64,000 nucleotides of DNA, from the NCBI GenBank assembly GCA_964481195.1, contig CAYZTB010000005.1, forward strand, positions 10,138-74,137. The letters run 5' to 3'. The position numbers and the translations under genes were made by a program. Of this stretch, positions 4,631 to 22,378 are shown piece after piece. Positions within the stretch are counted from its first letter, which is position 1. Each line of letters begins with the position of its first letter. The stretch comes from an uncultured Bacteroidia bacterium. GTDB taxonomy: Bacteria; Bacteroidota; Bacteroidia; Palsa-948. The notes beneath the pieces are model-generated. The model did not search any database. It saw only the letters and a program-made list of their open reading frames with translations, and was not told the origin of the DNA.

Positions 4631-7540
4631 ATGAAAAACTGCATTGGGGAAAATTTCAAAGGAGCTTCGGCTATTACTTTATTACTTTTTTTTTCCTTCT
4701 TTAATTTGAATGGGCAAGTTTGTATTATTTCCCCAATAAATATTACAGCAAACACCACCCCTGCAACCTGTATTATTGGAGGATCAGCAACCGTTAATAT
4801 CACAAATGGTTTTCCACCCTACACCTATTCTTGGTTTCCTAATGTAAGCAGCACTAAATCAGCCAGCAATCTTGCGCCTGGCACCTATTCCGTTAATGTA
4901 ATGGACACGCGATGTCATTCTCAACCAGGTCAGGAACTGGTTGTGAATGGAAATTTTAGTAGTGGCAATACCGGCTTTACAAGTGGCTATACGTATTGCA
5001 ACACCTCTCAATGTCTATTCACTGAAGGATATTATAGTGTTGGATCCAATCCTCAGTTCTATCACTCAAACTTTTTTGGCACCGACCATACAACCGGAAA
5101 CGGGAACTTTATGATTATTAACGGGAACACCATTCAGGGCATTTCCATTTGGTGCCAAACTGTTAATGTTACTCCAAACACTAACTATATATTTTCAACC
5201 TGGCTTAGCGCCATGAATACAACCAGCCCTGCACAACTGCAATTTTCAATAAATGGAACAGCAATAGGGAATAATTTTTTTGCACCTTCCACTACTAATA
5301 GTTGGATTCAGTTTTGCACCGTATGGAATTCTGGCTCTAATACAACTGCAAATATTTGCATCGATAATCAAAGCATTATCCTGGCTGGAAATGATTTTGG
5401 GCTAGATGATATTTCATTTCGCCCCTGCTCTCCTGCTACTTTAACATTCACAATTGCACCTCCTCCACCTGTAGTAAGCGCAGCAAATTCTTCCAACGCG
5501 GTATGTGGAGGATTTGGAACAGCTAATGTTGCTGCTAGCGGAGGAACTCCAACCTATTCCTACTCTTGGAGTAACGGACAAAGTACTTCTTCAGTGGCCG
5601 GGCTGACAACAGGAATATATTCTGTCACAGTAACAGATGGTGCTGGCTGTACATCCACTAACACTGTATCAATTTTAAATACCGGAAGCCTCACAGCAAC
5701 TGCTGGACCAAATACAACAATTTGCTCCGGCTCATCGCAGTCTCTTATTCTCAATGCATCAGGTGGCAGTAATTATTTATGGTCCACTTCGGCTACAACC
5801 AGCTCTATCTCTGTTTCTCCTGCTACTACTACATCGTACTCTGTTATCGTGTCAAAAGGCAACTGCGCAGATACGGGATATGTTACAGTAACCGTTAATC
5901 CACAACCTACGGCAATCCCATCAGGCACAAATATTTGTTTTAATAATCAAACTAATTTTACTGATCTCTCAACAGGAAACAATTCAATTTCTAATTGGGC
6001 CTGGGATTTTGGCGATGGAAATAACTCCAGCATTCAAAACCCCGGGCATACTTATTCAAGCGCAGGACCTTTTACTGTTACATTAATTGTTACAAATAAT
6101 TTTGGATGTAAAGACACAAATTCAGTTGTAGTAAACGTATTTCCACTGCCGCTGGCCAATTTCACCTTCTCAAATGCTTGTTTTGGAAATCCCGTTTCAT
6201 TTACTAACTTATCAAGCGTTTCATCTGGCAGCATCACTGCATGGAGCTGGAATTTTGGTGATCCGAATTCAGGAACAAACAATATTTCAAATACGACATC
6301 CCCAACACATATTTTTTCTGCCGCAGGAAATTACGTTGTTGTTCTTACCGTAACATCCAGCGATGGATGTCAAAACACATTGAATCTTTCAATTGCAATT
6401 AGCTCGCCTCCAGTGGCAATGTTTACGAACATTTCTAGTTGCTTGAATAATCCAACTAGCTACACCAACAACTCTACATCACCTGCTATTGATCCCATAA
6501 ATGCATGGACTTGGAATTTTGGGGATGGCTCCACTAATTCGATATTGCAAACTCCTTCACATACGTACGCAACAGCTGGCACATTCACTACTACATTACT
6601 AGTAACAACGATTGCTGGGTGTAAAGACACCACTACTAACATCGTTACAGTATATAATTTGCCGGTAGTTAACTTTTCTGATTCAGCAAAGGGATGTTCT
6701 CCAGTTTGTGGAAAATTTACTGATCTTTCCTCCGCTACAAGTGGAACTATAAACTCCTGGCTGTGGAGTTTTCCAGGCGGGAATCCTTCCACATCAACCT
6801 CTTCCTCTCCATCCGTTTGCTGGACATCTCCCGGTTCTTATGCCGTACAATTGGTTGTCACTTCTTCAGTAGGTTGCACTGATTCTGTGATTAAACATCA
6901 ATACGTTCAGGTTTACCCCTGGCCTACTGCTGATTTCTGCGTAGCTCCGGATAAAGCACCTGCCACTAATCCAGTATTTAATTTCTGCGATTTATGGTCA
7001 AAGGATGTGGTTCAATGGACTTGGAATTTTGGAGATAACACAACAGATGTCACAAACACAGACCCAACACATTCTTACTTATCTGCAATTACGGGAAATG
7101 ATTTTTACAATTTCAATGTTTGCTTGCAAGTTCAAAATCAATACGGCTGCTGGGATACTACTTGCAAAACTGTGGAATTAATTCCCGAATATGTGTTCTA
7201 TATACCTAATACATTTACGCCAAACTCGGATATGACCAATGATTTTTTCTTTGGGAAAGGAAGGGGAATTAAGGAATATAGCATTTGGTTATTTGACCGA
7301 TGGGGAAATCAAATATGGGACTGCCATATTTCCGAAAATAATAAAGACCTAGATAACAATGGGAAGGATGGACTTTCATCACTTTGCCAATGGAATGGAA
7401 ATGTGGAAGGAGGCGGCATGGATATGGGTGGAAACACCAACAAACTTGCTCAAGAAGATGTGTATGTGTGGAAAGTAAATCTTACTGATATTTTTGATCG
7501 CAGGCATACATACGTTGGGCATGTAAACGTAATAAGGTAG
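4631..7540 (+). CDS. Secreted multidomain adhesin (paralogue A): signal peptide, two SprB repeats, a CBM4/9/22-like beta-sandwich, about five PKD domains, and a T9SS type-B C-terminal sorting domain
   Basis: The SprB-repeat pattern is GGSATVNITNGFPPYTYSW...GTYSVNVMD and ASGGTPTYSYSWSNGQ...GIYSVTVTDGAGC. The CBM-like stretch is LVVNGNFSSGNTGFTSGY...DDISF. The PKD pattern is WAWDFGDGNNSSIQNPGHTY. The type-B CTD is YIPNTFTPNSDMTNDFFFGKGRGIKEYSIWLFDRWGNQIW. Confidence 0.8.
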   Translation: MKNCIGENFKGASAITLLLFFSFFNLNGQVCIISPINITANTTPATCIIGGSATVNITNGFPPYTYSWFPNVSSTKSASNLAPGTYSVNVMDTRCHSQPGQELVVNGNFSSGNTGFTSGYTYCNTSQCLFTEGYYSVGSNPQFYHSNFFGTDHTTGNGNFMIINGNTIQGISIWCQTVNVTPNTNYIFSTWLSAMNTTSPAQLQFSINGTAIGNNFFAPSTTNSWIQFCTVWNSGSNTTANICIDNQSIILAGNDFGLDDISFRPCSPATLTFTIAPPPPVVSAANSSNAVCGGFGTANVAASGGTPTYSYSWSNGQSTSSVAGLTTGIYSVTVTDGAGCTSTNTVSILNTGSLTATAGPNTTICSGSSQSLILNASGGSNYLWSTSATTSSISVSPATTTSYSVIVSKGNCADTGYVTVTVNPQPTAIPSGTNICFNNQTNFTDLSTGNNSISNWAWDFGDGNNSSIQNPGHTYSSAGPFTVTLIVTNNFGCKDTNSVVVNVFPLPLANFTFSNACFGNPVSFTNLSSVSSGSITAWSWNFGDPNSGTNNISNTTSPTHIFSAAGNYVVVLTVTSSDGCQNTLNLSIAISSPPVAMFTNISSCLNNPTSYTNNSTSPAIDPINAWTWNFGDGSTNSILQTPSHTYATAGTFTTTLLVTTIAGCKDTTTNIVTVYNLPVVNFSDSAKGCSPVCGKFTDLSSATSGTINSWLWSFPGGNPSTSTSSSPSVCWTSPGSYAVQLVVTSSVGCTDSVIKHQYVQVYPWPTADFCVAPDKAPATNPVFNFCDLWSKDVVQWTWNFGDNTTDVTNTDPTHSYLSAITGNDFYNFNVCLQVQNQYGCWDTTCKTVELIPEYVFYIPNTFTPNSDMTNDFFFGKGRGIKEYSIWLFDRWGNQIWDCHISENNKDLDNNGKDGLSSLCQWNGNVEGGGMDMGGNTNKLAQEDVYVWKVNLTDIFDRRHTYVGHVNVIR

Positions 7541-7597: not shown

Positions 7598-8839
7598 ATG
7601 AAATTATTTCAAATCCTGTTTGTACTTATCATTTTCTCTTCTATCTGCAAAGCAGATACCACCATTACTGCATTTAACAATGTGCATCAAAAATTTGGAG
7701 GAGGTCTCGATACAAGAACCGTTGTAGATACATTTTTGTTCCCCACTAATTTAGATTCATCTAGTGCAATTAAAATGCACCTTACTTTGAATTGCCCTGC
7801 TGGTGGATGTGACCCATGGGATCGATTTGCGAAAATCCAAGCGTTTCACAACAACGAATGGTTTGAAATTGGTAGATACATGACTCCCTATAAAAAATCC
7901 TGCGGCTGGATATTGGATGTATCGGATTATCGTTCTATGCTTAGCGATACGGTCATCTTAAAATCGTTTATTGATACATGGGTAAATCCAGGCTGGCTTG
8001 TGCATATTGATTTTGAATTTATAAGCGGAACTCCCGCAAATAAAATAATAAAGGTCGAAAATCTTTGGGTAAGCGATAATGTAGTGTATGGCGACAACTC
8101 ACAACCTATTACACTACCGGCAATTACTAAAACAATAGATGCAAGTGCTACACTTGTAAAATTAAGAATGGTAAATACCGGTCATGGACAAGGTAACACA
8201 GATAATGCAGCAGAGTTCTCACAGAAAACTCATAACATACTGGTAAATGGAAGTACTGCTTTTTCACAATTACTATGGAGATCTAATTGCGGTTCAAACC
8301 CATGTTCGCCACAAAGCGGCACCTGGCAGTATAATCGAGCAGGATGGTGTCCTGGAGCAGATGTAATCCCAAACAATTATGATATAACTTCAAAAATTAC
8401 CCCAGGTCAGCCTGCTACGTTAGGGTACCAACTTCAAAACTATACGAATCAATGTAGTCCTAATAACCCCAGTTGTGTTACTGGCAGTACGTGTACCGAT
8501 TGTAAGTATAATTACAACGGACACACTGAACCTCATTATAAAATTTCAGCACAACTTATCTCTTACTTAAGCAACGCAACTGGGATTTCGGGATTACAAA
8601 AAGAAATTGCTCTATCCATATTTCCAAATCCTACAAATGGTTTATTTACCGTAAATCTATCAGAAAAAAACTTACTTGTTACGTTAGCTATTTTTAACGT
8701 GATTGGAAAAAGAATATGGCTTGAAGATTTATTGCCTGGGAACAATTACATAGACCTTTCCACACTGCCTAAAGGAATATATATTTTGTCTTTTAATTCT
8801 GAAAATTCTAATAGCATAAAAAAGCTCGTAATTGAGTAA
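7598..8839 (+). CDS. PNGase F (peptide-N4-(N-acetyl-beta-glucosaminyl)asparagine amidase F) homologue with a T9SS type-A C-terminal sorting domain
   Basis: Signal peptide. The blocks CDPWDRFAKIQAFHNNEWFEIGRYMTPY, ILDVSDYRSMLSD...DTW...IDFEFISGTP and NRAGWCPGADV align with Elizabethkingia PNGase F (CDEWDRYANVYV..GEWYEIGRFITPY; EIDVTDFKSLLSG; DRAGWCPGMAV). The C-terminus LSIFPNPTNGLFTVNL...KGIYILSF...KKLVIE is a Por secretion tail. Confidence 0.8.
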   Translation: MKLFQILFVLIIFSSICKADTTITAFNNVHQKFGGGLDTRTVVDTFLFPTNLDSSSAIKMHLTLNCPAGGCDPWDRFAKIQAFHNNEWFEIGRYMTPYKKSCGWILDVSDYRSMLSDTVILKSFIDTWVNPGWLVHIDFEFISGTPANKIIKVENLWVSDNVVYGDNSQPITLPAITKTIDASATLVKLRMVNTGHGQGNTDNAAEFSQKTHNILVNGSTAFSQLLWRSNCGSNPCSPQSGTWQYNRAGWCPGADVIPNNYDITSKITPGQPATLGYQLQNYTNQCSPNNPSCVTGSTCTDCKYNYNGHTEPHYKISAQLISYLSNATGISGLQKEIALSIFPNPTNGLFTVNLSEKNLLVTLAIFNVIGKRIWLEDLLPGNNYIDLSTLPKGIYILSFNSENSNSIKKLVIE

Positions 8840-8930: not shown

Positions 8931-9842
8931 ATGTTATTATTAACTCCTACCAACTTTCCTGATTACGAACTAATAGACTGCGGTGATTTTGAAAAGTTGG
9001 AACGCTTTGGTAAATACATCACCATTCGCCCAGAGCCACAGGCAGTTTGGAGCAAAAAACTTTCAGCTCATGAATGGGAAAAAACAGCACATGTAAAGTT
9101 TGTTCCAAAAACTAGCAGTGCTGGCGATTGGAAAAAGTTTAAAGAGATGCCAGACCGCTGGACTATGCAGTATCAAGTCCAAAGTCTAAAGTCTAAAGTT
9201 GACCCTTCTACCTTAACCCTTAAGCTTTCCCTAACCTCATTTAAACATGTTGGAGTTTTTCCTGAGCAGGCAGTAAACTGGAATTATATTTACAACAACA
9301 TACGTGCGCTCTCCTCCCCTTCTGGGGGAGGTCGGGAGGGGGTGCCAAAATTCTTAAACCTCTTTGCTTATACTGGAGCAGCCTCTCTAGCTGCAAAAGC
9401 AGCAGGCGCAGATGTAACGCATCTGGATTCCATTAGGCAAGTAGTTACATGGGCTAGAGAAAACATGGAGCTTAGCGGACTAAAAGATATACGCTGGCTG
9501 GTAGAAGATGCTTTAAAATTTGTGAAGCGAGAAGTAAAGCGAGGTAATAAATACCATGGAATAATTTTGGACCCTCCTGCATACGGCAACGGACCAGATG
9601 GTGAAAAATGGAAGTTGGAAGATAACATCAAAGAAATGATGGATCTTGTTTTACAACTGCTTGATGAGAAAGAACATTTTATGATTTTAAATGCTTACTC
9701 CTTGGGCTTCTCCCCTATTGTTATTGAAAATTTATTGAAAGGTTTTGCAAAAAATAATCTTGAAACCGGAGAACTTTACCTTCAGTCAAAAACTGATTTA
9801 AAACTTCCTTTAGGGGTTTTTGGTAGGTTCAGAAATTTTTAA
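8931..9842 (+). CDS. Class I SAM-dependent (rRNA) methyltransferase, RlmI/RlmK-like PF10672 family
   Basis: The SAM-binding block is LNLFAYTGAASLAAKAAGADVTHLDS, with DPPAY downstream. It overlaps the convergent gene at 9810 by 33 nt. Confidence 0.65.
   Translation: MLLLTPTNFPDYELIDCGDFEKLERFGKYITIRPEPQAVWSKKLSAHEWEKTAHVKFVPKTSSAGDWKKFKEMPDRWTMQYQVQSLKSKVDPSTLTLKLSLTSFKHVGVFPEQAVNWNYIYNNIRALSSPSGGGREGVPKFLNLFAYTGAASLAAKAAGADVTHLDSIRQVVTWARENMELSGLKDIRWLVEDALKFVKREVKRGNKYHGIILDPPAYGNGPDGEKWKLEDNIKEMMDLVLQLLDEKEHFMILNAYSLGFSPIVIENLLKGFAKNNLETGELYLQSKTDLKLPLGVFGRFRNF
9311..9346 (+). repeat. GC-rich hairpin-forming insert (CTCCTCCCCTTCTGGGGGAGGTCGGGAGGGGGTGCC) inside the methyltransferase CDS, in frame (encodes SSPSGGGREGVP)
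   Basis: Read directly from the sequence. The CCTCCCC/GGGGAGG inverted repeat and the GGGAGGGGG run are anomalous against the 35% GC surroundings. Confidence 0.5.
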
Positions 9843-11735
9843 ACCCATTTTTTCATTTAGTTTTTCCAGCGCTTTGGGCGCTAAAGGATGACCAAGCTTT
9901 TCTAGTCTTATGTAATCAAGCTTAGCGCTGTCTAACTTTCCAACCACTTCATACACCCAACCGCGATTGAGTAAACAGATCTGACTTTTAGGATTAAGCT
10001 TCAAGCCAGAGCTAAAATCATTAATTGAATTTGCATAATCCTGATTAGTAAAATATGCCATGCCTCTCTTAATATAAGAATAGTCAGTAGCTGTATCACT
10101 TGTAATTTGAATCGAATACCCAATAATTTCATTTTGTAATTGCACTTTTCGCTTAGCATCCTCTTCAAAGTTTTTATCTACTTCGCCACCCATTTTTTTG
10201 TATTGCTGAATATCTATCAAAGCATTTTCAAATTTTCTCGAAAAATAAAAAGCCCTAGCTCTATCTTTATAAAACCCTGTATTTCCCGGCTCTAAAGTAA
10301 TAGCTACATTAAAACTTTCAATGGCTTTATCATACTGTTTCATCCCTAAATACACGGCTCCTTTATTAGCATACGGAATGGCGCTGTTTGTTCTTTTTTC
10401 AATGTAGGCATCGTACCATTTAATAGCTTCTTCGGGCAAATTATTGACTACACAAGCTCTACCAAGTATGATGTAATAATAAATGGAATGTGGAGCCTCT
10501 TCAATGCCTGTTGTTGCCAGCTGGTATGGGTTTTTGTAAACATCGGATCTAATAAAAGTTTTAACGAAAAACAGCAACGCTATAATCGAAAAAAATATCC
10601 AAGTAATTATTTTCTTATTAAAGAAATCAATCTTGGAAAAATTTATTTGCGAAAGCATAATAAAAACTCCTACCATAGGCAGATAGGCTCTCTGCTCGAA
10701 GTGCTCAGCACCGCTACGCATGGAACCTGCAATTAGAGGAATAATAATAAATGTGAAAAACCAAAATATCCCAAAGATTGTCAATCGCTTATTGCTGAAT
10801 TTAAAATAAAATACAATTGTTATTAGCAAAGCAATAACAAAATAAAATGGAAGCATGCTTGTTTCTGCCACCGTAGGTGCAACCGACTGATTAATCGGCA
10901 AAATGATTTTTCCAAAATACATTACTGTGGCTAAGGCCATATCTTGAAAAACATTGAAAAAACTAAGATTGTCTGCAGGTAAATAAACTGGAATTATCTG
11001 GTGACGAATAAAAAACCAAACACCAACAATAGCAACAAGTATTGCAAACAAATAAATAATTTCTTTTCGAATGGTCTTCTTGTTTATCAAGATATAATAA
11101 CCCGTAAAAAGTATCGGCAACACAATGGCATTCTCTTTTGTAAAAAGCGCAAGCACAGTAAATAATGTACAAAACAATAAGTTTTTAATTTTGAAGTTTT
11201 CTAGATAATTTAGAAAGAAAATAAATACAGAAAACGAAAAAATGGCCAGCAAAACATCCACCCTTCCCGGCACAAAAGCGACTGATTGAACATGCAAGGG
11301 ATGAACAGCAAATAAAAGTGAAAAACCAAAAGCAATATTCCTTTTAAGCCCAAGTTTTTGAAAAACAACAAAAAGCAGCACAGAAGCAATGGCATGATAA
11401 ACTATATTAAAAAAGTGAAAAACCATGGGGTTACTTCCACCTATCATAACATCGGGCATATAGGACACTACCCAAATAGGTCTGTAGTAGTTATCGAGTA
11501 TTGCCTCCGAAAAAAATACCTTCAAACTTGAAAGGTCACGATACAGATCAATCCTTTTTACAATAAGCCATTCATCATCCAGCGGAGAAAACGCGAAACT
11601 TAAAGTAGGCAGATATACAATTACAGCTGCTAGGATAATAAACAGATAGTTCCAATATTTCTGCACAACTTCAATAAAATTAAAAGAAGAAGTAAGATTT
11701 TTGTTTTCCAAATCCATAGGGTAAAAGTAAAACAA
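9810..11735 (-). CDS. PMT/TMTC-like (GT-C fold) multi-pass membrane protein with C-terminal TPR repeats; paralogue of 17223 and 19287
   Basis: About 10 N-terminal TM helices. An acidic loop motif FSPLDDEW and a YRP motif appear as in O-mannosyltransferase-like TMTC/PMT proteins. The C-terminal roughly 250 aa are TPR repeats. Confidence 0.55.
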   Translation of the reverse strand: MFYFYPMDLENKNLTSSFNFIEVVQKYWNYLFIILAAVIVYLPTLSFAFSPLDDEWLIVKRIDLYRDLSSLKVFFSEAILDNYYRPIWVVSYMPDVMIGGSNPMVFHFFNIVYHAIASVLLFVVFQKLGLKRNIAFGFSLLFAVHPLHVQSVAFVPGRVDVLLAIFSFSVFIFFLNYLENFKIKNLLFCTLFTVLALFTKENAIVLPILFTGYYILINKKTIRKEIIYLFAILVAIVGVWFFIRHQIIPVYLPADNLSFFNVFQDMALATVMYFGKIILPINQSVAPTVAETSMLPFYFVIALLITIVFYFKFSNKRLTIFGIFWFFTFIIIPLIAGSMRSGAEHFEQRAYLPMVGVFIMLSQINFSKIDFFNKKIITWIFFSIIALLFFVKTFIRSDVYKNPYQLATTGIEEAPHSIYYYIILGRACVVNNLPEEAIKWYDAYIEKRTNSAIPYANKGAVYLGMKQYDKAIESFNVAITLEPGNTGFYKDRARAFYFSRKFENALIDIQQYKKMGGEVDKNFEEDAKRKVQLQNEIIGYSIQITSDTATDYSYIKRGMAYFTNQDYANSINDFSSGLKLNPKSQICLLNRGWVYEVVGKLDSAKLDYIRLEKLGHPLAPKALEKLNEKMGLKISEPTKNP

Positions 11736-16462: not shown

Positions 16463-17194
16463 TTGTTGAGATACATTCGACACATACTTGCTTCTTTACT
16501 ATTTCTATCGTTTTTCACCTCTGCATTCTCTCAGGTAAAAAAGGGTGATACTTTTGAATTTAATGCAGTTTATGATTCTACTTACGGCATAAATATTTAC
16601 GAGCCCTTAAATATGAATACAGGTGGCGACTCTACTCGTAGTGGCGCAAAAGGATATGCCCTTCAAGGATGGATTGAAGATTATTATCCTGGAGGAGAAG
16701 TATTGCATAAAGGATATTACATTGACGGGCAGTTAAAAGCCTATAAAAATTTTTATCCATCCGGTCAAGCGGAAAGAGAATTTAAAATGGTAAATCTTTC
16801 AAAAAGTGAACTCAACGTATATTATGATAACGGCAAACCGAGATCGATCATTTCTTACATTACCTCCAACGCAATAAAAGAAGAAGATTATTTTATTACT
16901 GGGCAGATAGAATACATAGAGGAATACGATAAAAATTGCGTCTATTACCTGCAAAGAAAATTTTTTAACGAAAATGGAAACCCAACTTCTACACTAGAAT
17001 TAGTTGACAGCAAAAAACTTATCTATAATAGTAAAGATTATCACGAAAATGGAAAGCTGAAAGAAGAAGGTCAGATGGTATTTAATGAAGGGATGGGCGA
17101 CTACCAAAAAAATGGTAAATGGAAATTTTATAAAGAAGACGGAAGCCTGAAAGAAGAAAAAACTTTTTCTAGAGGCGGTGATGAAGCGGAATAA
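16463..17194 (+). CDS. Secreted MORN-variant repeat protein (YwqK-like family)
   Basis: Signal peptide. Repeated G-rich units YYPGGEVLHKGYYIDGQLKAYKNFYPSGQ and YHENGKLKEEGQMVFNEGMGDYQKNGKWKFYKEDGSLKEE. A TAATTTTG -7 element lies at 16444-16451. Confidence 0.5.
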   Translation: MLRYIRHILASLLFLSFFTSAFSQVKKGDTFEFNAVYDSTYGINIYEPLNMNTGGDSTRSGAKGYALQGWIEDYYPGGEVLHKGYYIDGQLKAYKNFYPSGQAEREFKMVNLSKSELNVYYDNGKPRSIISYITSNAIKEEDYFITGQIEYIEEYDKNCVYYLQRKFFNENGNPTSTLELVDSKKLIYNSKDYHENGKLKEEGQMVFNEGMGDYQKNGKWKFYKEDGSLKEEKTFSRGGDEAE

Positions 17195-17222: not shown

Positions 17223-19277
17223 ATGCAGAAACGAGTCCATTATTTTTCGGTTTTCTTATTATTTTTTGGGTTGCTGTTAGTTTATTCTAACCACTTTCAC
17301 AATTCTTTTCATTTTGACGACTCGCATACCATCGTCAACAATATTTACATTAAAAAAATCAGCAACATCCCCTTGTTTTTTAAAGACGGGACTACCTTTA
17401 GCTCACTTCCCTCTAATCAGTCATACAGGCCAGTTGTCACAACCTCTTTAGCCATCGATTATTGGCTAGGGAATGGGTTGGATACCTACTATTTTCATCT
17501 TTCTACTTTTATACTTTTTATACTGCTGGGAATATTAATATTTTTTCTGTGTAAAAAAATATACTCGCATGCAGCGTCAGCCAAAAACGTATTTCTTGTT
17601 AGCATACTAACTACCGCTTGGTATCTCCTCCACCCAGCCAATGCAGAAACAATCAACTATGTGATAGCTCGTAGCGATTCACTCTCAACTCTTTTTGTAG
17701 TACTTGCATTTGTTATCTATGCTTACTCACCGCTTTCCAGAAGATATTACCTGTATGTAATTCCCATAGCTATTGGAATACTTGCAAAAATATCTGCCAT
17801 TATGTTTGCGCCCATCCTTTGGGTGTACATCCTACTTTTTGAAAAAGAGAAATCTTTTGTGGAATTAATGGAAAAGAAAAACATCAACCTTCTCTTCTCC
17901 TCAATGAAAGCTGTTATACCGATTTTTATTTTTTGTGGCGCTGCATACCTTTTCGTTCAAAAAATGGAATCGAGCACTTGGTCTCCAGGCGGCACTTCTA
18001 CTTACTTGTATATTATCACACAGCCATTTGTAATATGGCATTACTTTAAAACTTTTTTCTTCCCGCTTTGGCTATCGGCAGATACCGACTGGACTACGTT
18101 TGAATCGATATTAAACCTCAAAGCAATTGCAGGATTTATTTTTGTTGGATTGCTCCTTGTCATCGCGATTATTACTTCAAAAAAATCCATTCATAGACCC
18201 ATTTCTTTTGGGGTTTGCTGGTTTCTGCTTGCGCTAGTTCCTTCATCTAGTGTTATCCCACTTGCAGAAGTGATGAATGACCATCGAGTTTTTTTTCCTT
18301 ACATTGGATTAGCAATTGCCGTATGCTGGACTTTATACTTAGGTTATCTAGAAATTATTAAAAGAATATCTAAGCCTTTTGAAATAAAAGTTGCTGTATT
18401 TACAACCTCACTGTTATTTTTATCAGCTTATGGGTACGGCACTTTTCAGCGCAACGAAATCTGGAAAACGGATGAATCGCTTTGGTATGATGCTACAATA
18501 AAAAGTCCAAAAAATGCAAGAGCCTTAATGAATTACGGACTAAGCTTAATGGCAAAAGGCGATTACATAGGAGCAGAAAAATATTTTACCGATGCATTAA
18601 CTCTTTGGCCACAGTATGCTTACCTACATGTAAATATGGGAATATTAAAAAACGCCATTGGTGATGCTGCATCTGCCGAACAATATTATCGCACTGCGTT
18701 AACCTACCGCTCTGATATTCCCGAACTATATTTTTTTTATGCCGAGTTCCTTCATAAGCAACAACGAAATTCAGAAGCTATTGGGTTGTTAAAAAAATCG
18801 ATAGAACTCTACCGCGCTAACCCGCAATCACGCTATTTGCTTATGACCGTTTATGCAGAAAATAACGAGAATGAAAACCTAGTGGCATTAGCTCAAGAAA
18901 CACTACAAATTATTCCTGGCGATATAACAGCATTAGCTTTCTTAAACACACCAACAGGAAATAAATCCAAACTTGAAACTACTTTAGATTATGCAATAGC
19001 AAACCCTACTGCAGAAAATTATTTAAACTTATCACTCGAATATTATAATGCCGGTAAATTTCTTGAATGTGTTGCAGCTTGCGAAGAAGCCTTGAAGATA
19101 AATCCAAACTTTGATCTTGCCTATAACAATATTTGCAGTGCGTATAATATGCTATCCAACTGGGACAAGGCCATAGAAGCAGGACAAAAGGCAGTTGATA
19201 TTAACCCCAACAATCAATTAGTAAAAAATAATTTAGAATTCTCCAAAAAACAAAAAGCATCTCAGGCGACTAAATAA
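17223..19277 (+). CDS. PMT/TMTC-like (GT-C fold) multi-pass membrane protein with C-terminal TPR repeats
   Basis: FHFDDSHTIVNN acidic loop and SYRPVVTTSLAIDYW motif. About 11 TM helices are followed by a TPR array. The C-terminal TPR block (CVAACEEALKINPNFDLAYNNICSAYNM) is paralogous to that of 19287. Confidence 0.55.
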   Translation: MQKRVHYFSVFLLFFGLLLVYSNHFHNSFHFDDSHTIVNNIYIKKISNIPLFFKDGTTFSSLPSNQSYRPVVTTSLAIDYWLGNGLDTYYFHLSTFILFILLGILIFFLCKKIYSHAASAKNVFLVSILTTAWYLLHPANAETINYVIARSDSLSTLFVVLAFVIYAYSPLSRRYYLYVIPIAIGILAKISAIMFAPILWVYILLFEKEKSFVELMEKKNINLLFSSMKAVIPIFIFCGAAYLFVQKMESSTWSPGGTSTYLYIITQPFVIWHYFKTFFFPLWLSADTDWTTFESILNLKAIAGFIFVGLLLVIAIITSKKSIHRPISFGVCWFLLALVPSSSVIPLAEVMNDHRVFFPYIGLAIAVCWTLYLGYLEIIKRISKPFEIKVAVFTTSLLFLSAYGYGTFQRNEIWKTDESLWYDATIKSPKNARALMNYGLSLMAKGDYIGAEKYFTDALTLWPQYAYLHVNMGILKNAIGDAASAEQYYRTALTYRSDIPELYFFYAEFLHKQQRNSEAIGLLKKSIELYRANPQSRYLLMTVYAENNENENLVALAQETLQIIPGDITALAFLNTPTGNKSKLETTLDYAIANPTAENYLNLSLEYYNAGKFLECVAACEEALKINPNFDLAYNNICSAYNMLSNWDKAIEAGQKAVDINPNNQLVKNNLEFSKKQKASQATK

Positions 19278-19286
19278 AAGACCCTA

Positions 19287-21302
19287 ATGAATGTTGAAGT
19301 AAAATATATTAAAGAATGGAAGATTGCATTTATTGTACTGTCAGTAATCGTTGCTATTTTAATTCCATACCTGAGTTTTGACTACGGCATTACCGAGGAT
19401 GAACAAGCACATTGCCAGCACGGAAAAAGCATCTTAGATTACTTTACTGGAAAAAATAATATTGCTGCTCGTAGTCCGATAGATAGTACCGGAAAGCTTC
19501 AAATCATTTCTTTCGATGATAACATGAATGACATTTCCGGAGAAATGAATATTTATGGCGGCACCTTTGACTTGCTATGCGCCATCGCAAACGAATATGT
19601 TTTTTCTTTTGGAGAATACGAGACTAGGCACTTTATTAATTCTCTTTTTGGGGTATTACTTATAGTTTTTACCGGACTATTTACAACTTATTTAGGAGGC
19701 TGGAGAGCTGGAACAATCGCACTACTCTTAATGGCATTAACTCCACGCATTATTGCTCATTCCATGAACAATCCAAAGGACATTCCTTTTGCTGCTCTTT
19801 ACATCATCTGTTTGTATTTTATTTTTCGTTTTGTAGAGGAACTTCCAAAACCTAAATTAAAAACATGGCTTCCATTACTAATTTGCATTCCGCTAGCTGC
19901 TGACATACGGATATCAGGACTGCTACTTATCGTATATCTTATTTTATTTGTTTGCTACCGATGGAACAATTTGTTTTTTGAAAAAAATATAAATAAAGAA
20001 GAAGTAAGAATATTTTTTCGTTCCTTAACCTATGCTGTTGTGTTATCCGTTTGCAGTTACCTTCTTATTTCTATTTTATGGCCCTTTGCACAAACAAATC
20101 CACTTAAAGTTCCCTACTTAGCATTAAGCAAACTTTCAGATCTCGATATCACTTGGGATTCACACGATTTATTTGAAGGAAAATGGATTGTTAGGTCAGA
20201 GATGCCTTGGTACTTGGGATTAAAATGGTTGTTTATTGGAAACCCTCTTTTCCTACCACTTGGATTAGCAACATCAGTATTTATTTTTATTCACACCAGC
20301 AACATAGAAGATTCTTTTCCAATTAAAAAAATACTGATGCTTGTTTTCACTTTTGCATTTCCTGTTTTGTATGTTATTTTCAGAGGATCCTATTTGTATA
20401 ACGATACACGCCACATACTTTTTGTTGTTCCATGCATCTTGGCACTTTCTGCATTATCATTCGAAAACTTATTTCGGATACTTCCTAACAAATTCTTGAA
20501 ATATGGATTTGCAATACTAGTTTCACTTACAATGCTGCAGCCACTTATTTGGATGAATCGAAATCACCCACACGAAGTAGCATACTTCAGTCCACTTATT
20601 GGAGGCACCGATGGCGCCTGGAAAAAATACGAAACAGATTTTTGGGGCAACGCTGTAAGACATGCCGCAGAATGGATTCATGAAAACGTGCCTCCAGGCG
20701 ATGATAAAAACCCTGTTAAAGTTAGAATTTGGTATGGGAATTTCTTAAAAGGCTCTTATTATATTGAGAAGAAGAAAGGATATAAAGCAATGCGCGATTA
20801 TGAAAACTCTCCAAACTGGGATTATTATATCATGCAAACTACTGCCGCAAAAAATTTTCCTGATTGGCTTACTAATTGGCCACCTCCCGGCACGATACAT
20901 GAGATTAAAGCTGACAATATACCCTTATGTGCTATCATTAAAAATCCATGGAAAACCCAACCAATATTACTTACTCAAGAAGATAGTATCCTGATAGAAA
21001 AACAGAACTTACCAAAAAATCTCTCCTTTGATGATTATATGAATTTGAGTTTTAAAAAATATGAGTCTAAACAGTTTGAAGCATGTGTAGGAGCTTGCTT
21101 GCTTGCGCTACAACTAAACCCATCAAGCGATGTTGCATACAATAATATTTGCGCAGCGTACAATGAACTTAAAGAATGGGAAAAAGCAAAAAAAGCTTGT
21201 CAAGAAGCTCTACGAATAAATTCCGAATTTACATTAGCAAAAAATAATTTAAACTGGGCCAGCGATATGATTTCCAAACAATCAATCTCAGGTAAAAAAT
21301 AA
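19287..21302 (+). CDS. Divergent GT-C-like multi-pass membrane protein with C-terminal TPR repeats (tandem paralogue)
   Basis: N-terminal TM region with an acidic ITEDEQ loop. The C-terminal TPR block CVGACLLALQLNPSSDVAYNNICAAYNE is near-identical in pattern to that of 17223. Confidence 0.45.
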   Translation: MNVEVKYIKEWKIAFIVLSVIVAILIPYLSFDYGITEDEQAHCQHGKSILDYFTGKNNIAARSPIDSTGKLQIISFDDNMNDISGEMNIYGGTFDLLCAIANEYVFSFGEYETRHFINSLFGVLLIVFTGLFTTYLGGWRAGTIALLLMALTPRIIAHSMNNPKDIPFAALYIICLYFIFRFVEELPKPKLKTWLPLLICIPLAADIRISGLLLIVYLILFVCYRWNNLFFEKNINKEEVRIFFRSLTYAVVLSVCSYLLISILWPFAQTNPLKVPYLALSKLSDLDITWDSHDLFEGKWIVRSEMPWYLGLKWLFIGNPLFLPLGLATSVFIFIHTSNIEDSFPIKKILMLVFTFAFPVLYVIFRGSYLYNDTRHILFVVPCILALSALSFENLFRILPNKFLKYGFAILVSLTMLQPLIWMNRNHPHEVAYFSPLIGGTDGAWKKYETDFWGNAVRHAAEWIHENVPPGDDKNPVKVRIWYGNFLKGSYYIEKKKGYKAMRDYENSPNWDYYIMQTTAAKNFPDWLTNWPPPGTIHEIKADNIPLCAIIKNPWKTQPILLTQEDSILIEKQNLPKNLSFDDYMNLSFKKYESKQFEACVGACLLALQLNPSSDVAYNNICAAYNELKEWEKAKKACQEALRINSEFTLAKNNLNWASDMISKQSISGKK

Positions 21303-21315
21303 TTTAGCTACTTTT

Positions 21316-21657
21316 CTACTCCTTTTTCCCTTCCTTATTTTTTAATAATGCTAGCTCCTGAGCCAGAACTTTACTTTGCTTTTGCAACCTTGAAACGGTA
21401 ACTGATAAATGCAATAAATAAATTAACATTATAAAAATTGCTCCGGTAAAAATCATATTAGGAGGAGCAATAATGCCCAACATATTAGAAACAATATCTA
21501 TCCCCTCTCTCCAAAAAGAAAACAGAATGAGAACAAAGGTGGAAACAATCCATACAATTGCATACTCTTCACGAAGCTTGCCCTTTACAATAAGCCAAGC
21601 GATATAAAGTAAAAAAAGCAAGCTAGCTGCAATGGCAATAATTTGTATTCTTTCCAT
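21316..21657 (-). CDS. DUF2304-family small membrane protein, usually paired with polyprenyl-phosphate glycosyltransferases
   Basis: Three TM helices. It lies immediately downstream of the GT2 gene with a 4-nt gap. Family assignment is from memory of the conserved gene pair. Confidence 0.5.
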   Translation of the reverse strand: MERIQIIAIAASLLFLLYIAWLIVKGKLREEYAIVWIVSTFVLILFSFWREGIDIVSNMLGIIAPPNMIFTGAIFIMLIYLLHLSVTVSRLQKQSKVLAQELALLKNKEGKKE

Positions 21658-21661
21658 GATT

Positions 21662-22378
21662 TTATCTATTGTTGGTTCGTATAAATGTAAATATTATTCC
21701 CAAAGTAACTTTCCACATATAATAGATGCTGGAAAAAAAACCAATTGAAGAAACTCCTCCTTGTCGCTCACTCATACTAACGGGGAGCTCTCCTATTTTA
21801 ATTTTGTTCTTAGCAAATAATATTATGGATTCCGGCTCTGGGTATTCATCGGGGTAAGTTTCGCATACTAGCTCAAGTGATTTTCGATTTAACACCCTAA
21901 AGCCTGAAGTGCAATCATAAATACGTTGTCCGGTTAAGATCTTTAACAGCAAACTAAACCACACAATGCCTGCTCTACGAATAAAGGAAGATTGAAATCC
22001 TTTGTGAGTAATAAATCGGGACCCTATGATTATATCTAAATTGTATTTTATAAGCTCCGAAACCAGAGTTGGTATTTCCACCGAAGGGTGTTGTCCATCC
22101 CCATCTACTTGAACCGCATAGTCAAAGTCATTCTCTAAAGCATATTTGAAACCAGTTTGCATGGCACCACCTATACCTAAATTGACTGGAAGATGAAGTG
22201 AAACACAATTAAGACTATTTATAATCAAAGCAGTTGCATCAGTAGAACAATCATTAACAACAATTACGCTGACTTGAAATTCTTTGTATAAAGAAGTTGC
22301 TAAAACATCATTTACTACATTAGAGATAGATTTTTCTTCATTATAAGCAGGAATAATAATAGCGAGTGAATGGCTCAT
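21662..22378 (-). CDS. GT2-family polyprenyl-phosphate hexose (mannose/glucose) synthase, DPM1/ArnC-like
   Basis: IIIPAYNEE...VVNDCSTD...QVDGDGQHP are the hallmark GT2 DPM1-like motifs. It has a soluble catalytic domain of 238 aa. Confidence 0.75.
   Translation of the reverse strand: MSHSLAIIIPAYNEEKSISNVVNDVLATSLYKEFQVSVIVVNDCSTDATALIINSLNCVSLHLPVNLGIGGAMQTGFKYALENDFDYAVQVDGDGQHPSVEIPTLVSELIKYNLDIIIGSRFITHKGFQSSFIRRAGIVWFSLLLKILTGQRIYDCTSGFRVLNRKSLELVCETYPDEYPEPESIILFAKNKIKIGELPVSMSERQGGVSSIGFFSSIYYMWKVTLGIIFTFIRTNNR

What the first reader, a model, noticed from the sequence alone, without database searches (positions are those of the whole stretch)
17223..22378. Putative protein O-mannosylation-type system: tandem PMT/TMTC-like TPR glycosyltransferase candidates next to a polyprenyl-phosphate hexose synthase and DUF2304
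Two adjacent genes (17223-19277 and 19287-21302) encode proteins with about 10-11 TM helices, an acidic first-loop motif (FHFDDSH; ITEDEQ), a YRP motif and C-terminal TPR arrays. The TPR ends are near-identical between the two. A third paralogue (9810-11735; FSPLDDEW, YRP) lies 6 kb away. This architecture matches eukaryotic TMTC/TMEM260-type GT-C O-mannosyltransferases, whose bacterial homologues are essentially uncharacterised. Directly downstream on the opposite strand is a DPM1-like GT2 enzyme (polyprenyl-phosphate-mannose/glucose synthase) with its usual DUF2304 partner. This is the enzyme that would make the lipid-linked sugar donor GT-C enzymes require. A lipid-linked-donor protein glycosylation system distinct from the known Bacteroidetes general O-glycosylation pathway would be notable. 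T9SS adhesins rich in Ser/Thr/PKD repeats, as in this window, are plausible substrates.
Basis: inference. Interest (0 to 1): 0.7.

Follow-up and report, generated by a model that had tools for sequence, protein, structure and literature searches.

The report
TPR-bearing membrane glycosyltransferases with lipid-sugar donor synthase
This locus most likely makes a sugar attached to a membrane lipid carrier and hands it to TPR-tailed membrane enzymes that glycosylate a target outside the cytoplasm; the gene set is widespread and unstudied in Bacteroidota, but neither the sugar (probably not mannose) nor the target is known.

Summary

P2 (19287-21302) is not a paralogue of P1. It belongs to a different GT-C family (PMT_2/GT39-like, DE motif, no YRP). 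It shares only a 2-TPR C-terminal module with P1 (45% identity, not near-identical). P3 (9810-11735) is a PMT_2+TPR relative of P1.

GT2 plus DUF2304 is the GacI/GacJ or PpgS/Rv3632 type of polyprenyl-phosphate sugar synthase. Both characterised pairs make HexNAc-P-lipid, not Man-P-lipid.

The strongest new evidence is linkage. In 35 of 69 species-level genomes the orthologous DUF2304-GT2 pair lies convergent within 6 kb of the P1 orthologue, while the other flanking genes vary. Natural fusions also exist (GT2+GtrA+P1-type GT-C+TPR; GT2+P2-type GT-C+TPR).

Verdict: this is a lipid-linked-donor periplasmic glycosylation system with TMTC-like TPR transferases. A protein acceptor is plausible but unproven. 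"O-mannosylation" is not supported.

The parts
17223..19277 (+). P1, 684 aa. Residues 1-428 form an 11-TM GT-C glycosyltransferase domain. Periplasmic-loop motifs are D32-D33, S64-N-Q-S-Y-R-P70, R150-x-D152, K189, D289-W290 and H354-R355. Residues about 430-684 form roughly six TPRs predicted to face the periplasm.
19287..21302 (+). P2, 671 aa. A second GT-C glycosyltransferase from a different family (PMT_2/GT39-like). It has a D38-E39 first-loop motif, a periplasmic domain at about residues 425-560, and a C-terminal 2-TPR module shared with P1.
   Evidence: PMT_2 28.4 bits against a cut-off of 26.1. 21 of 26 relatives hit PMT_2 and 13 of 26 hit PMT. NCBI names one homologue (P0122) 'glycosyltransferase family 39 protein'. 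Homologues fused to an N-terminal GT2 domain. No similarity to the P1 TM half. Present beside P1 in only 7 of 80 genomes.
21316..21657 (-). DUF2304 small membrane protein, 113 aa. Predicted membrane anchor and activator of the GT2 enzyme, the GacJ/Rv3632 counterpart.
   Evidence: Pfam DUF2304 91.8 bits. Hydrophobic helices. GacJ and Rv3632 roles. Found with GT2 beside P1 orthologues in 32-33 of 80 genomes.
21662..22378 (-). GT2 (GT-A fold) polyprenyl-phosphate glycosyltransferase, 238 aa, with no TM helix and a D-G-D-G-Q-H-P catalytic motif. Predicted to make the undecaprenyl-phosphate sugar donor, most likely a HexNAc.
   Evidence: Glycos_transf_2 83.6 bits. Best NCBIfam match is PpgS, 87.8 bits, below the equivalog cut-off of 370. 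Collinear with ArnC and Pyrococcus DPMS catalytic domains, including DADLQ(N/H)P, but it stops before their TM helices. No hydrophobic peak.
9810..11735 (-). P3, 641 aa (635 aa from the ATG at 11717). A third TPR-bearing GT-C (PMT_2) distantly homologous to P1. Whether it uses the same donor is unknown.
   Evidence: PMT_2 34 bits plus TPRs. hhalign of the P1 profile against P3 gives probability 94%, E 1.4e-7, 361 columns, aligning DD, YRP, RxD, K and R. A P3-like gene lies within 10 kb of P1 in only 8 of 80 genomes.

Best explanation
This is a lipid-linked-donor, extracytoplasmic glycosylation system.

1. At the cytoplasmic face, the soluble GT2 enzyme transfers one sugar from a nucleotide sugar to undecaprenyl phosphate. 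It is held at the membrane and activated by the small DUF2304 protein. The sugar is most likely GlcNAc or GalNAc, judging from the closest characterised relatives.
2. The lipid-linked sugar is flipped by a flippase that is not encoded here.
3. At the periplasmic face, P1 uses it as donor. P1 is a TMTC-like GT-C enzyme. D32/D33 would serve as catalytic/acceptor-binding residues, and K189, D289 and R355 would bind phosphate/metal.
4. P1's periplasmic TPR array selects the acceptor, which I take most likely to be Ser/Thr of exported proteins.
5. P2 is a second, unrelated GT-C inserted between P1 and the donor genes in this lineage. It probably draws on the same or a similar donor. It shares a terminal TPR docking module with P1.

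Shown: the folds, motifs, family assignments, conserved linkage and fusions. Inferred: the sugar identity, the flipping step and the acceptor.
For: - TMTC-type motifs are collinear and conserved across 68 relatives at under 50% identity. 5 of 68 relatives weakly hit Pfam TMTC_DUF1736.
- P2 and P3 pass the Pfam PMT_2 cut-off.
- GT2 aligns over the full catalytic domain with ArnC and DPMS and lacks their TM helices. Its best curated family is PpgS. Its neighbour is DUF2304.
- In the two studied cases the DUF2304 protein binds and/or stimulates such a synthase. With GacJ, Km for Und-P falls from 18.7 to 1.1 uM and Vmax rises from 54 pmol to 18.5 nmol/min/mg.
- Linkage: orthologous GT2 (at least 45% identity) lies within 6 kb downstream of P1, always convergent, in 35 of 69 usable species genomes (Mucilaginibacter, Pedobacter, Emticicia, Hydrotalea, Chitinophagaceae and many MAGs). 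Of all window neighbours only GT2 (44 of 80) and DUF2304 (32 of 80) recur; RecQ recurs in 15 and TrxB in 1.
- Fusions: P0430 is GT2 + GtrA_DPMS_TM + P1-type GT-C + TPR. P0176, P0188, P0232 and P0234 are GT2 + P2-type GT-C + TPR.
- In the closest syntenic relative, the DUF2304/GT2 slot holds a different GT2 + FAD-oxidoreductase + epimerase cassette. This fits a swappable donor module.
- 67 of 68 P1-type relatives carry TPRs.
- GT2 + GT-C protein O-glycosylation is known in streptococci.
Against: - No flippase gene (GtrA or Wzx type) was found in the window genes I examined.
- Only about half of the genomes keep the pair beside P1.
- The GT2 scores far below the PpgS equivalog cut-off (87.8 against 370), so the sugar is not established.
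- Both characterised DUF2304-type synthases feed enzymes that modify polysaccharides (streptococcal rhamnan, mycobacterial arabinogalactan), not proteins.
- TPRs also occur in polysaccharide-export scaffolds, so they do not prove a protein acceptor.
- No structure was predicted for P2.
Confidence: 0.5

Rival explanations
1. The machinery is the same (Und-P-sugar synthase plus GT-C transferases), but the acceptor is a glycan or lipid rather than a protein: LPS/lipid A, O-antigen, capsule, exopolysaccharide or peptidoglycan. The TPRs would dock the enzyme onto envelope-assembly machinery.
For: Every characterised DUF2304-partnered synthase serves glycan modification: GacI/J with GacL on rhamnan, and PpgS/Rv3632 with Rv3779 on arabinogalactan. 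Three-component systems are best known for periplasmic glycan decoration. Recurrent neighbours in other genomes include a short-chain dehydrogenase, a methyltransferase and a GT87-like membrane glycosyltransferase, which suggests glycan building or tailoring. The swapped donor cassette in L084 resembles serotype-type variability.
Against: Known glycan- or lipid-modifying GT-Cs of these systems (ArnT, GacL, GtrC-type enzymes) lack TPR arrays (my own knowledge). P1-type enzymes carry TPRs almost without exception (67 of 68). The P1 motif set matches TMTC protein O-mannosyltransferases more closely than any other described family.
Confidence: 0.3
2. One reading: a protein O-mannosylation system. 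The GT2 would make polyprenyl-phosphate mannose, and P1/P2/P3 would be O-mannosyltransferases acting on Ser/Thr-rich T9SS adhesins.
For: TMTC-like motifs and architecture. JGI labels some P1 homologues 'protein O-mannosyl-transferase'. PMT_2 matches for P2 and P3. The GT2 is homologous to DPMS. Bacteroidota O-glycans have mannose at the reducing end. T9SS/PKD proteins are encoded nearby.
Against: The best curated match of the GT2 is a GalNAc-P-polyprenol synthase. The DUF2304 pairing is known only for HexNAc donors. PpgS cannot substitute for a PPM synthase in vivo. The His-Lys of the TMTC SHKSYRP motif, modelled as mannose contacts, is Asn-Gln in P1. Nothing ties the nearby adhesins to the locus, and they are not conserved neighbours.
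Confidence: 0.12
3. The adjacency is incidental. The GT2/DUF2304 pair serves another pathway, and the TPR membrane proteins are not active transferases; they would be scaffolds or chaperones.
For: About half of the P1 orthologues lack the pair nearby. P1 has no Pfam glycosyltransferase hit. Its profile finds nothing among PDB sequences.
Against: Linkage in 35 of 69 diverse genomes with changing flanks is far beyond chance. Fusion proteins exist. The catalytic-type residues are invariant across relatives below 50% identity. The fold is unambiguously GT-C.
Confidence: 0.05

Closest known systems
Animal TMTC1-4 (CAZy GT105; cadherin/protocadherin O-mannosyltransferases)
   Same: An 11-TM GT-C domain followed by TPRs on the non-cytoplasmic side. 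Collinear motifs: DD in loop 1, SxxSYRP in loop 1, RxD in loop 2, Lys in loop 3, DW after an amphipathic helix in loop 4, Arg in loop 5. Some P1-type relatives touch Pfam TMTC_DUF1736.
   Different: The window protein has no DUF1736 hit. The Glu of KE(T/Q)xxT and the Glu/Tyr of ERxxY are replaced, and the His-Lys of SHKSYRP is Asn-Gln. The genetically linked donor synthase is of the HexNAc-P-lipid type rather than Dol-P-Man. The host is bacterial and the compartment is the periplasm. The acceptor is unknown.
GacI/GacJ/GacL of Streptococcus pyogenes, and PpgS/Rv3632/Rv3779 of Mycobacterium tuberculosis
   Same: A short GT2 synthase without its own TM helices is encoded next to a DUF2304 membrane protein of about 113 aa. 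Together they make a polyprenyl-phosphate monosaccharide used by a GT-C enzyme outside the cytoplasm.
   Different: Their GT-C partners have no TPRs and decorate polysaccharides. Here the partner is a TMTC-like TPR enzyme, and the GT2 scores well below the PpgS equivalog threshold.
Streptococcal GtrB/PgtC2 and PgfS/PgfM1 protein O-glycosylation
   Same: A GT2 Und-P-sugar synthase plus a GT-C transferase adds single Glc or GalNAc residues to Ser/Thr-rich regions of extracytoplasmic proteins. This is the nearest bacterial precedent for the proposed protein acceptor.
   Different: Those GT-Cs are YfhO-family enzymes without TPRs, and no DUF2304 partner is described in the passages read. The hosts are Firmicutes, not Bacteroidota.
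PMT (GT39) protein O-mannosyltransferases and ArnT (GT83)
   Different: There is no MIR domain and TPRs are present instead. Sequence identity to solved members is about 10-13%. The donor and acceptor are unverified.

Membership tests
GT-C fold glycosyltransferases (P1) | Polytopic membrane fold superposable on solved GT-C enzymes | tested here: met
GT-C fold glycosyltransferases (P1) | Conserved acidic residue(s) in the first extracytoplasmic loop | tested here: met
   D32 and D33 are invariant in 68 relatives below 50% identity.
TMTC / GT105 | Pfam TMTC_DUF1736 match at or above the gathering score | tested here: not met
   There is no hit for the window protein even at E<10. 5 of 68 relatives hit weakly; the best is 23.9 bits against a cut-off of 27.
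TMTC / GT105 | Seven motifs M1-M7 (DD, SHKSYRP, RxD, KE(T/Q)xxT, DW, PxxP, ERxxY) | tested here: inconclusive
   M1, M3 and M5 are intact. M2 is 5 of 7 (SNQSYRP). M4 keeps only the Lys, M7 only the Arg (HRxxF), and M6 has altered spacing (P340...P346). I had no TMTC sequence for a direct alignment.
TMTC / GT105 | 11 TM helices with a C-terminal TPR array on the non-cytoplasmic side | tested here: met
   Helix map of the AlphaFold model. Lys/Arg-rich short loops alternate with the conserved-motif loops. The sidedness itself is inferred from this, not measured.
TMTC / GT105 | Transfers mannose from Dol/Und-P-Man to protein Ser/Thr | not testable with these tools
   Needs biochemistry. The linked synthase points to HexNAc instead.
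PMT_2 / GT39-like (P2, P3) | Pfam PMT_2 at or above the gathering score | tested here: met
   P2 scores 28.4 and P3 scores 34.0 against a cut-off of 26.1. 21 of 26 P2 relatives match PMT_2 at E<=0.01 and 13 of 26 match PMT.
GacI/GacJ - PpgS/Rv3632 type synthase | A GT2 without TM helices encoded next to a DUF2304 protein | tested here: met
   The pair is kept together in 32-33 genomes.
GacI/GacJ - PpgS/Rv3632 type synthase | NCBIfam PpgS equivalog score | tested here: not met
   87.8 bits against a cut-off of 370. PpgS is still the best of 22 families.
GacI/GacJ - PpgS/Rv3632 type synthase | Product is HexNAc-P-polyprenol | not testable with these tools
   Requires an enzyme assay.
Three-component periplasmic glycosylation system | Synthase and GT-C genes genetically linked | tested here: met
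   35 of 69 genomes within 6 kb. Fusion proteins exist.
Three-component periplasmic glycosylation system | Dedicated flippase (GtrA or Wzx type) in the locus | tested here: not met
   None was found among the genes annotated in the window region. A GtrA_DPMS_TM domain is present only in the fusion P0430.
Bacteroidota general O-glycosylation (D-S/T-A/I/L/V/M/T) | Phylum-wide presence, including Bacteroides, Porphyromonas, Tannerella and Flavobacterium | not tested
The best 80 hits contain none of these genera, but weaker hits were not listed.

The most novel reading that the evidence does not exclude
P1-type TPR/GT-C enzymes would be the prokaryotic counterparts of animal TMTCs. They would be the so-far undiscovered transferases that put the first sugar on exported proteins in Bacteroidota, that is, the missing initiating step of the phylum's protein O-glycosylation. 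The donor would be an Und-P-monosaccharide rather than an en bloc oligosaccharide.
Probability: 0.1. Interest if true: 0.85.

Novelty: new variant of a known kind. Interest (0 to 1): 0.55.

Why it matters
A 2025 review states that the transferase, flippase and core-glycan machinery of Bacteroidota protein O-glycosylation are still unknown, and it suggests looking for relatives of eukaryotic O-mannosylation enzymes. This locus defines a very large uncharacterised family. The profile finds 2,770 clusters at E<=1e-30 and 54,174 at E<=1e-3. The family is TMTC-like, and its donor-synthesis partner can now be named from gene linkage and fusions. That gives a concrete three-gene knockout and enzyme-assay target. 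If the acceptors turn out to be proteins, it would also give a bacterial model for TMTC enzymes, whose mechanism is still inferred from models. If the acceptor is a glycan, the locus is an unusual TPR-guided variant of periplasmic glycan decoration.

Tried and rejected
- Foldseek with the full-length P1 model returned only TPR proteins. I re-predicted the TM half alone.
- The AlphaFold-database library (afdb50) was unavailable, so no structural ranking against TMTC models was possible.
- A profile of the P1 TM half against all PDB sequences gave no hit.
- Pfam on the P1 TM half at E<10 gave nothing.
- P1 and P2 as paralogues: rejected by BLASTP and hhalign.
- The P2 family profile against PDB was swamped by TPRs.
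- The homologue search for GT2 gave only generic names.
- A cluster look-up for taxon names of distant P1-type proteins yielded almost none; one was Oligoflexia.
- The promoter/terminator scan was at background level, and its consensus is not suited to Bacteroidota.
- Literature searches for Bacteroidota TMTC-like or TPR GT-C enzymes found nothing relevant.
- From memory I first took Rv3630 to be the mycobacterial GT-C partner. The paper names Rv3779 instead.
Full report
**Observation.**
- P1: 17223-19277 (+), 684 aa
- P2: 19287-21302 (+), 671 aa
- DUF2304 protein: 21316-21657 (-), 113 aa
- GT2 enzyme: 21662-22378 (-), 238 aa
- P3: 9810-11735 (-), 641 aa

The window matches a 95-kb contig from JGI metagenome 3300020596 that carries the same genes.

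Hydropathy gives about 10-11 membrane helices in each of P1, P2 and P3, none in GT2, and hydrophobic helices in the DUF2304 protein. The acidic first-loop motifs are real and conserved. YRP is present in P1 and P3 but absent from P2. The C-terminal TPR ends of P1 and P2 are 45% identical over 89 residues and 62% at the DNA level. That is a shared module, not near-identity.

**What the three membrane proteins are.**

P1 matches only TPR families in Pfam. Its first 428 residues match nothing even at E<10. A profile of that half finds nothing among PDB sequences.

After these, scores fall to 5.5 or below. Foldseek agrees.

The helix map gives 11 TM helices. Short Lys/Arg-rich loops alternate with the long conserved loops, and the TPRs follow TM11. 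From this I infer an N-in, C-out topology. That topology puts the TPRs and all conserved motifs in the periplasm.

Seven TMTC motifs have been published (PMC7801869). P1 compares as follows:

| TMTC motif | P1 |
|---|---|
| M1 DD | D32-D33 |
| M2 SHKSYRP | S-N-Q-S-Y-R-P (64-70) |
| M3 RxD | R150-x-D152 |
| M4 KE(T/Q)xxT | K189 only |
| M5 DW | D289-W290, after an amphipathic helix |
| M6 PxxP | altered spacing (P340...P346) |
| M7 ERxxY | H354-R355 (Arg kept) |

The motifs occur in the same order and with similar spacing. D32, D33, P70, K189 and R355 are invariant, and R69, R150, D289 and H354 are at least 90% conserved, in 68 relatives that are below 50% identical to one another.

Five of those 68 weakly match Pfam TMTC_DUF1736 (best 23.9 bits, cut-off 27). 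It is the only family in the listed top 25 that is not a TPR or TPR-like helical-repeat family.

I therefore call P1 TMTC-like. I do not file it as a TMTC member, because the Pfam criterion is not met.

P3 passes PMT_2 (34 bits). It aligns with the P1 profile over 361 columns at 94% probability.

P2 also passes PMT_2 (28.4 against 26.1), as do 21 of 26 of its relatives. It has a D38-E39 loop-1 pair. Its membrane half shows no relation to P1. So the "tandem paralogues" are two different GT-C families that share only a terminal TPR module.

**The donor genes.** The GT2 protein aligns over its whole length with the catalytic domains of ArnC and of Pyrococcus dolichol-phosphate mannose synthase. 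This includes D-G-D-G-Q-H-P opposite their D-A-D-L-Q-(N/H)-P. It ends before their membrane helices begin.

Among curated NCBI families its best match is PpgS, the mycobacterial polyprenyl-P-GalNAc synthase. The score is 87.8 bits, ahead of AglJ, ArnC, PgfS and a haloarchaeal Dol-P-hexose transferase. It is far below the equivalog cut-off of 370.

Its neighbour is a clear DUF2304 protein (91.8 bits). Two such pairs have been studied:
- GacI/GacJ make GlcNAc-P-undecaprenol. [quoted passage not shown]
- PpgS/Rv3632 make polyprenyl-P-GalNAc. PpgS cannot replace the polyprenyl-P-mannose synthase in vivo (PMC3485146).

"DPM1-like" is therefore right as a fold and reaction class. The best-supported guess for the sugar is a HexNAc, not mannose. 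This is inference from relatives.

**Are the genes functionally linked?** I fetched 80 species-representative genomes that encode P1 orthologues at 45-55% identity. They include Mucilaginibacter, Pedobacter, Emticicia, Hydrotalea, Chitinophagaceae, Aquimarina and many MAGs.
- In 35 of the 69 loci with enough downstream DNA, an orthologous GT2 (at least 45% identity) lies within 6 kb downstream of P1. It is always on the opposite strand and usually comes with DUF2304.
- Among all genes within 10 kb of P1 in the window, only GT2 (44 of 80 loci) and DUF2304 (32 of 80) recur. RecQ recurs in 15, P3-like in 8, P2-like in 7 and TrxB in 1. The link therefore survives where the flanks have changed.
- Natural fusions point the same way. 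P0430 is GT2 + GtrA/DPMS membrane domain + P1-type GT-C + TPRs in one 1,038-aa protein. Several proteins of about 1,000 aa join a GT2 domain to a P2-type GT-C and TPRs.
- A distant P1-type gene also has a 227-aa GT2 divergently adjacent.
- In the closest syntenic relative the gene order is TrxB-MORN-P1-P2-...-RecQ. There the DUF2304/GT2 slot holds a different cassette: a GT2, a 130-aa protein, an FAD-type oxidoreductase and an NAD epimerase. It looks like an exchangeable donor module.

P2 is a lineage-specific insertion between P1 and the donor genes. The conserved unit is P1 + DUF2304 + GT2.

**Mechanism proposed.**
1. GT2, held and activated by DUF2304, makes Und-P-sugar at the inner face.
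2. An unidentified flippase moves it across. None is encoded among the window genes I examined.
3. P1 transfers the sugar in the periplasm to an acceptor chosen by its TPRs. P2 probably does likewise.

The acceptor is the weakest link. For a protein acceptor:
- 67 of 68 P1-type relatives carry TPRs.
- The motif set is TMTC-like.
- Streptococci already show GT2 + GT-C O-glycosylation of Ser/Thr-rich protein regions.

For a glycan acceptor:
- Both studied DUF2304 systems decorate polysaccharides.
- Recurrent neighbours elsewhere include a short-chain dehydrogenase (23 loci), a methyltransferase (15) and a GT87-like membrane protein (8).

My confidence estimates: the full model with a protein acceptor, 0.5. 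The same machinery with a glycan acceptor, 0.3. Literal O-mannosylation, 0.12. Incidental adjacency, 0.05.

**Comparison with the known, and novelty.** The system works like the three-component periplasmic glycosylation systems (Gtr, Arn, Gac, PpgS). The transferase resembles animal TMTCs. I found no paper describing such enzymes in Bacteroidota.

The family is very large. The P1 membrane-domain profile finds 54,174 clusters (50% identity level) at E<=1e-3, 26,983 at E<=1e-10 and 2,770 at E<=1e-30. It is not confined to Bacteroidota: one hit is from Oligoflexia, and others are from MAGs labelled Blastocatellia, Nitrospirota and Kapaibacterium.

A 2025 review states that the transferase, flippase and core-glycan machinery of the Bacteroidota general O-glycosylation system remain undiscovered. 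It notes that the reducing-end sugar is a hexose (mannose) and that homologues of eukaryotic O-mannosylation should be sought (PMC12871550). These enzymes could even belong to it.

I rate that reading at about 0.1 for three reasons. The donor looks like HexNAc. The family extends beyond the phylum. I also could not test whether Bacteroides, Porphyromonas, Tannerella or Flavobacterium carry it.

Classification: a new variant of a known kind. Interest: 0.55.

Noticed in passing
window 7598-8839 (+): A 413-aa protein with a PNGase F-type N-glycanase_C domain and a T9SS C-terminal sorting domain. It follows a 969-aa SprB/PKD-repeat protein at 4631-7540 (Pfam marks). A secreted peptide-N-glycanase-like enzyme lies close to three putative glycosyltransferases.
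   Followed up: no
L084 6759-10431 (GCA_016195025.1, the closest syntenic relative): The slot occupied here by DUF2304/GT2 instead holds a 288-aa GT2, a 130-aa protein without a Pfam hit, a 533-aa FAD-type oxidoreductase and a 268-aa NAD epimerase/RmlD-like protein. They sit between P1-P2 and RecQ. This may be an alternative lipid-linked-sugar donor cassette with an oxidase/reductase epimerisation step. A GT4 gene and a YfhO-family GT-C gene follow RecQ.
   Followed up: partly
e.g. L005 7862-8638 (-); 28 of 80 P1 loci: A small N-terminally anchored TPR protein of about 261 aa is often encoded just upstream of P1 orthologues. It carries the same terminal module (AYNNIG..AY / LAKNNL.W) that ends both P1 and P2 in the window (tblastn 35-37% identity to 18921-19256 and 21018-21266). 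No such separate gene was found in the window.
   Followed up: partly
e.g. L004 5553-6236 (+), L027 2682-3548 (+), L005 6436-7839 (+): Other recurrent neighbours of P1 orthologues that are absent from this window: a classical short-chain dehydrogenase (adh_short, 23 loci, usually between P1 and DUF2304), a class I methyltransferase (15 loci), and a 462-aa membrane protein weakly matching GT87 (8 loci).
   Followed up: partly
P0430 (L089 6001-9117); P0176, P0188, P0232, P0234: Single polypeptides combine GT2 + GtrA/DPMS membrane domain + P1-type GT-C + TPRs, or GT2 (with the DTQCGFKLY motif) + P2-type GT-C + TPRs. Donor synthase and transferase are in one chain.
   Followed up: partly
window 16463-17194 (+): A MORN-repeat protein with a signal-peptide-like N-terminus ends 29 bp before P1 on the same strand and may be co-transcribed. 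It is kept in the closest relative (L084) but in none of the 80 species genomes.
   Followed up: partly
window 9810-9842: The 3' end of P3 (- strand) overlaps by 33 bp the 3' end of the convergent 303-aa gene at 8931-9842 (weak methyltransferase-family Pfam marks). The listed TTG start of P3 at 11735 is 18 bp upstream of the ATG (11717) used by the public gene call.
   Followed up: no
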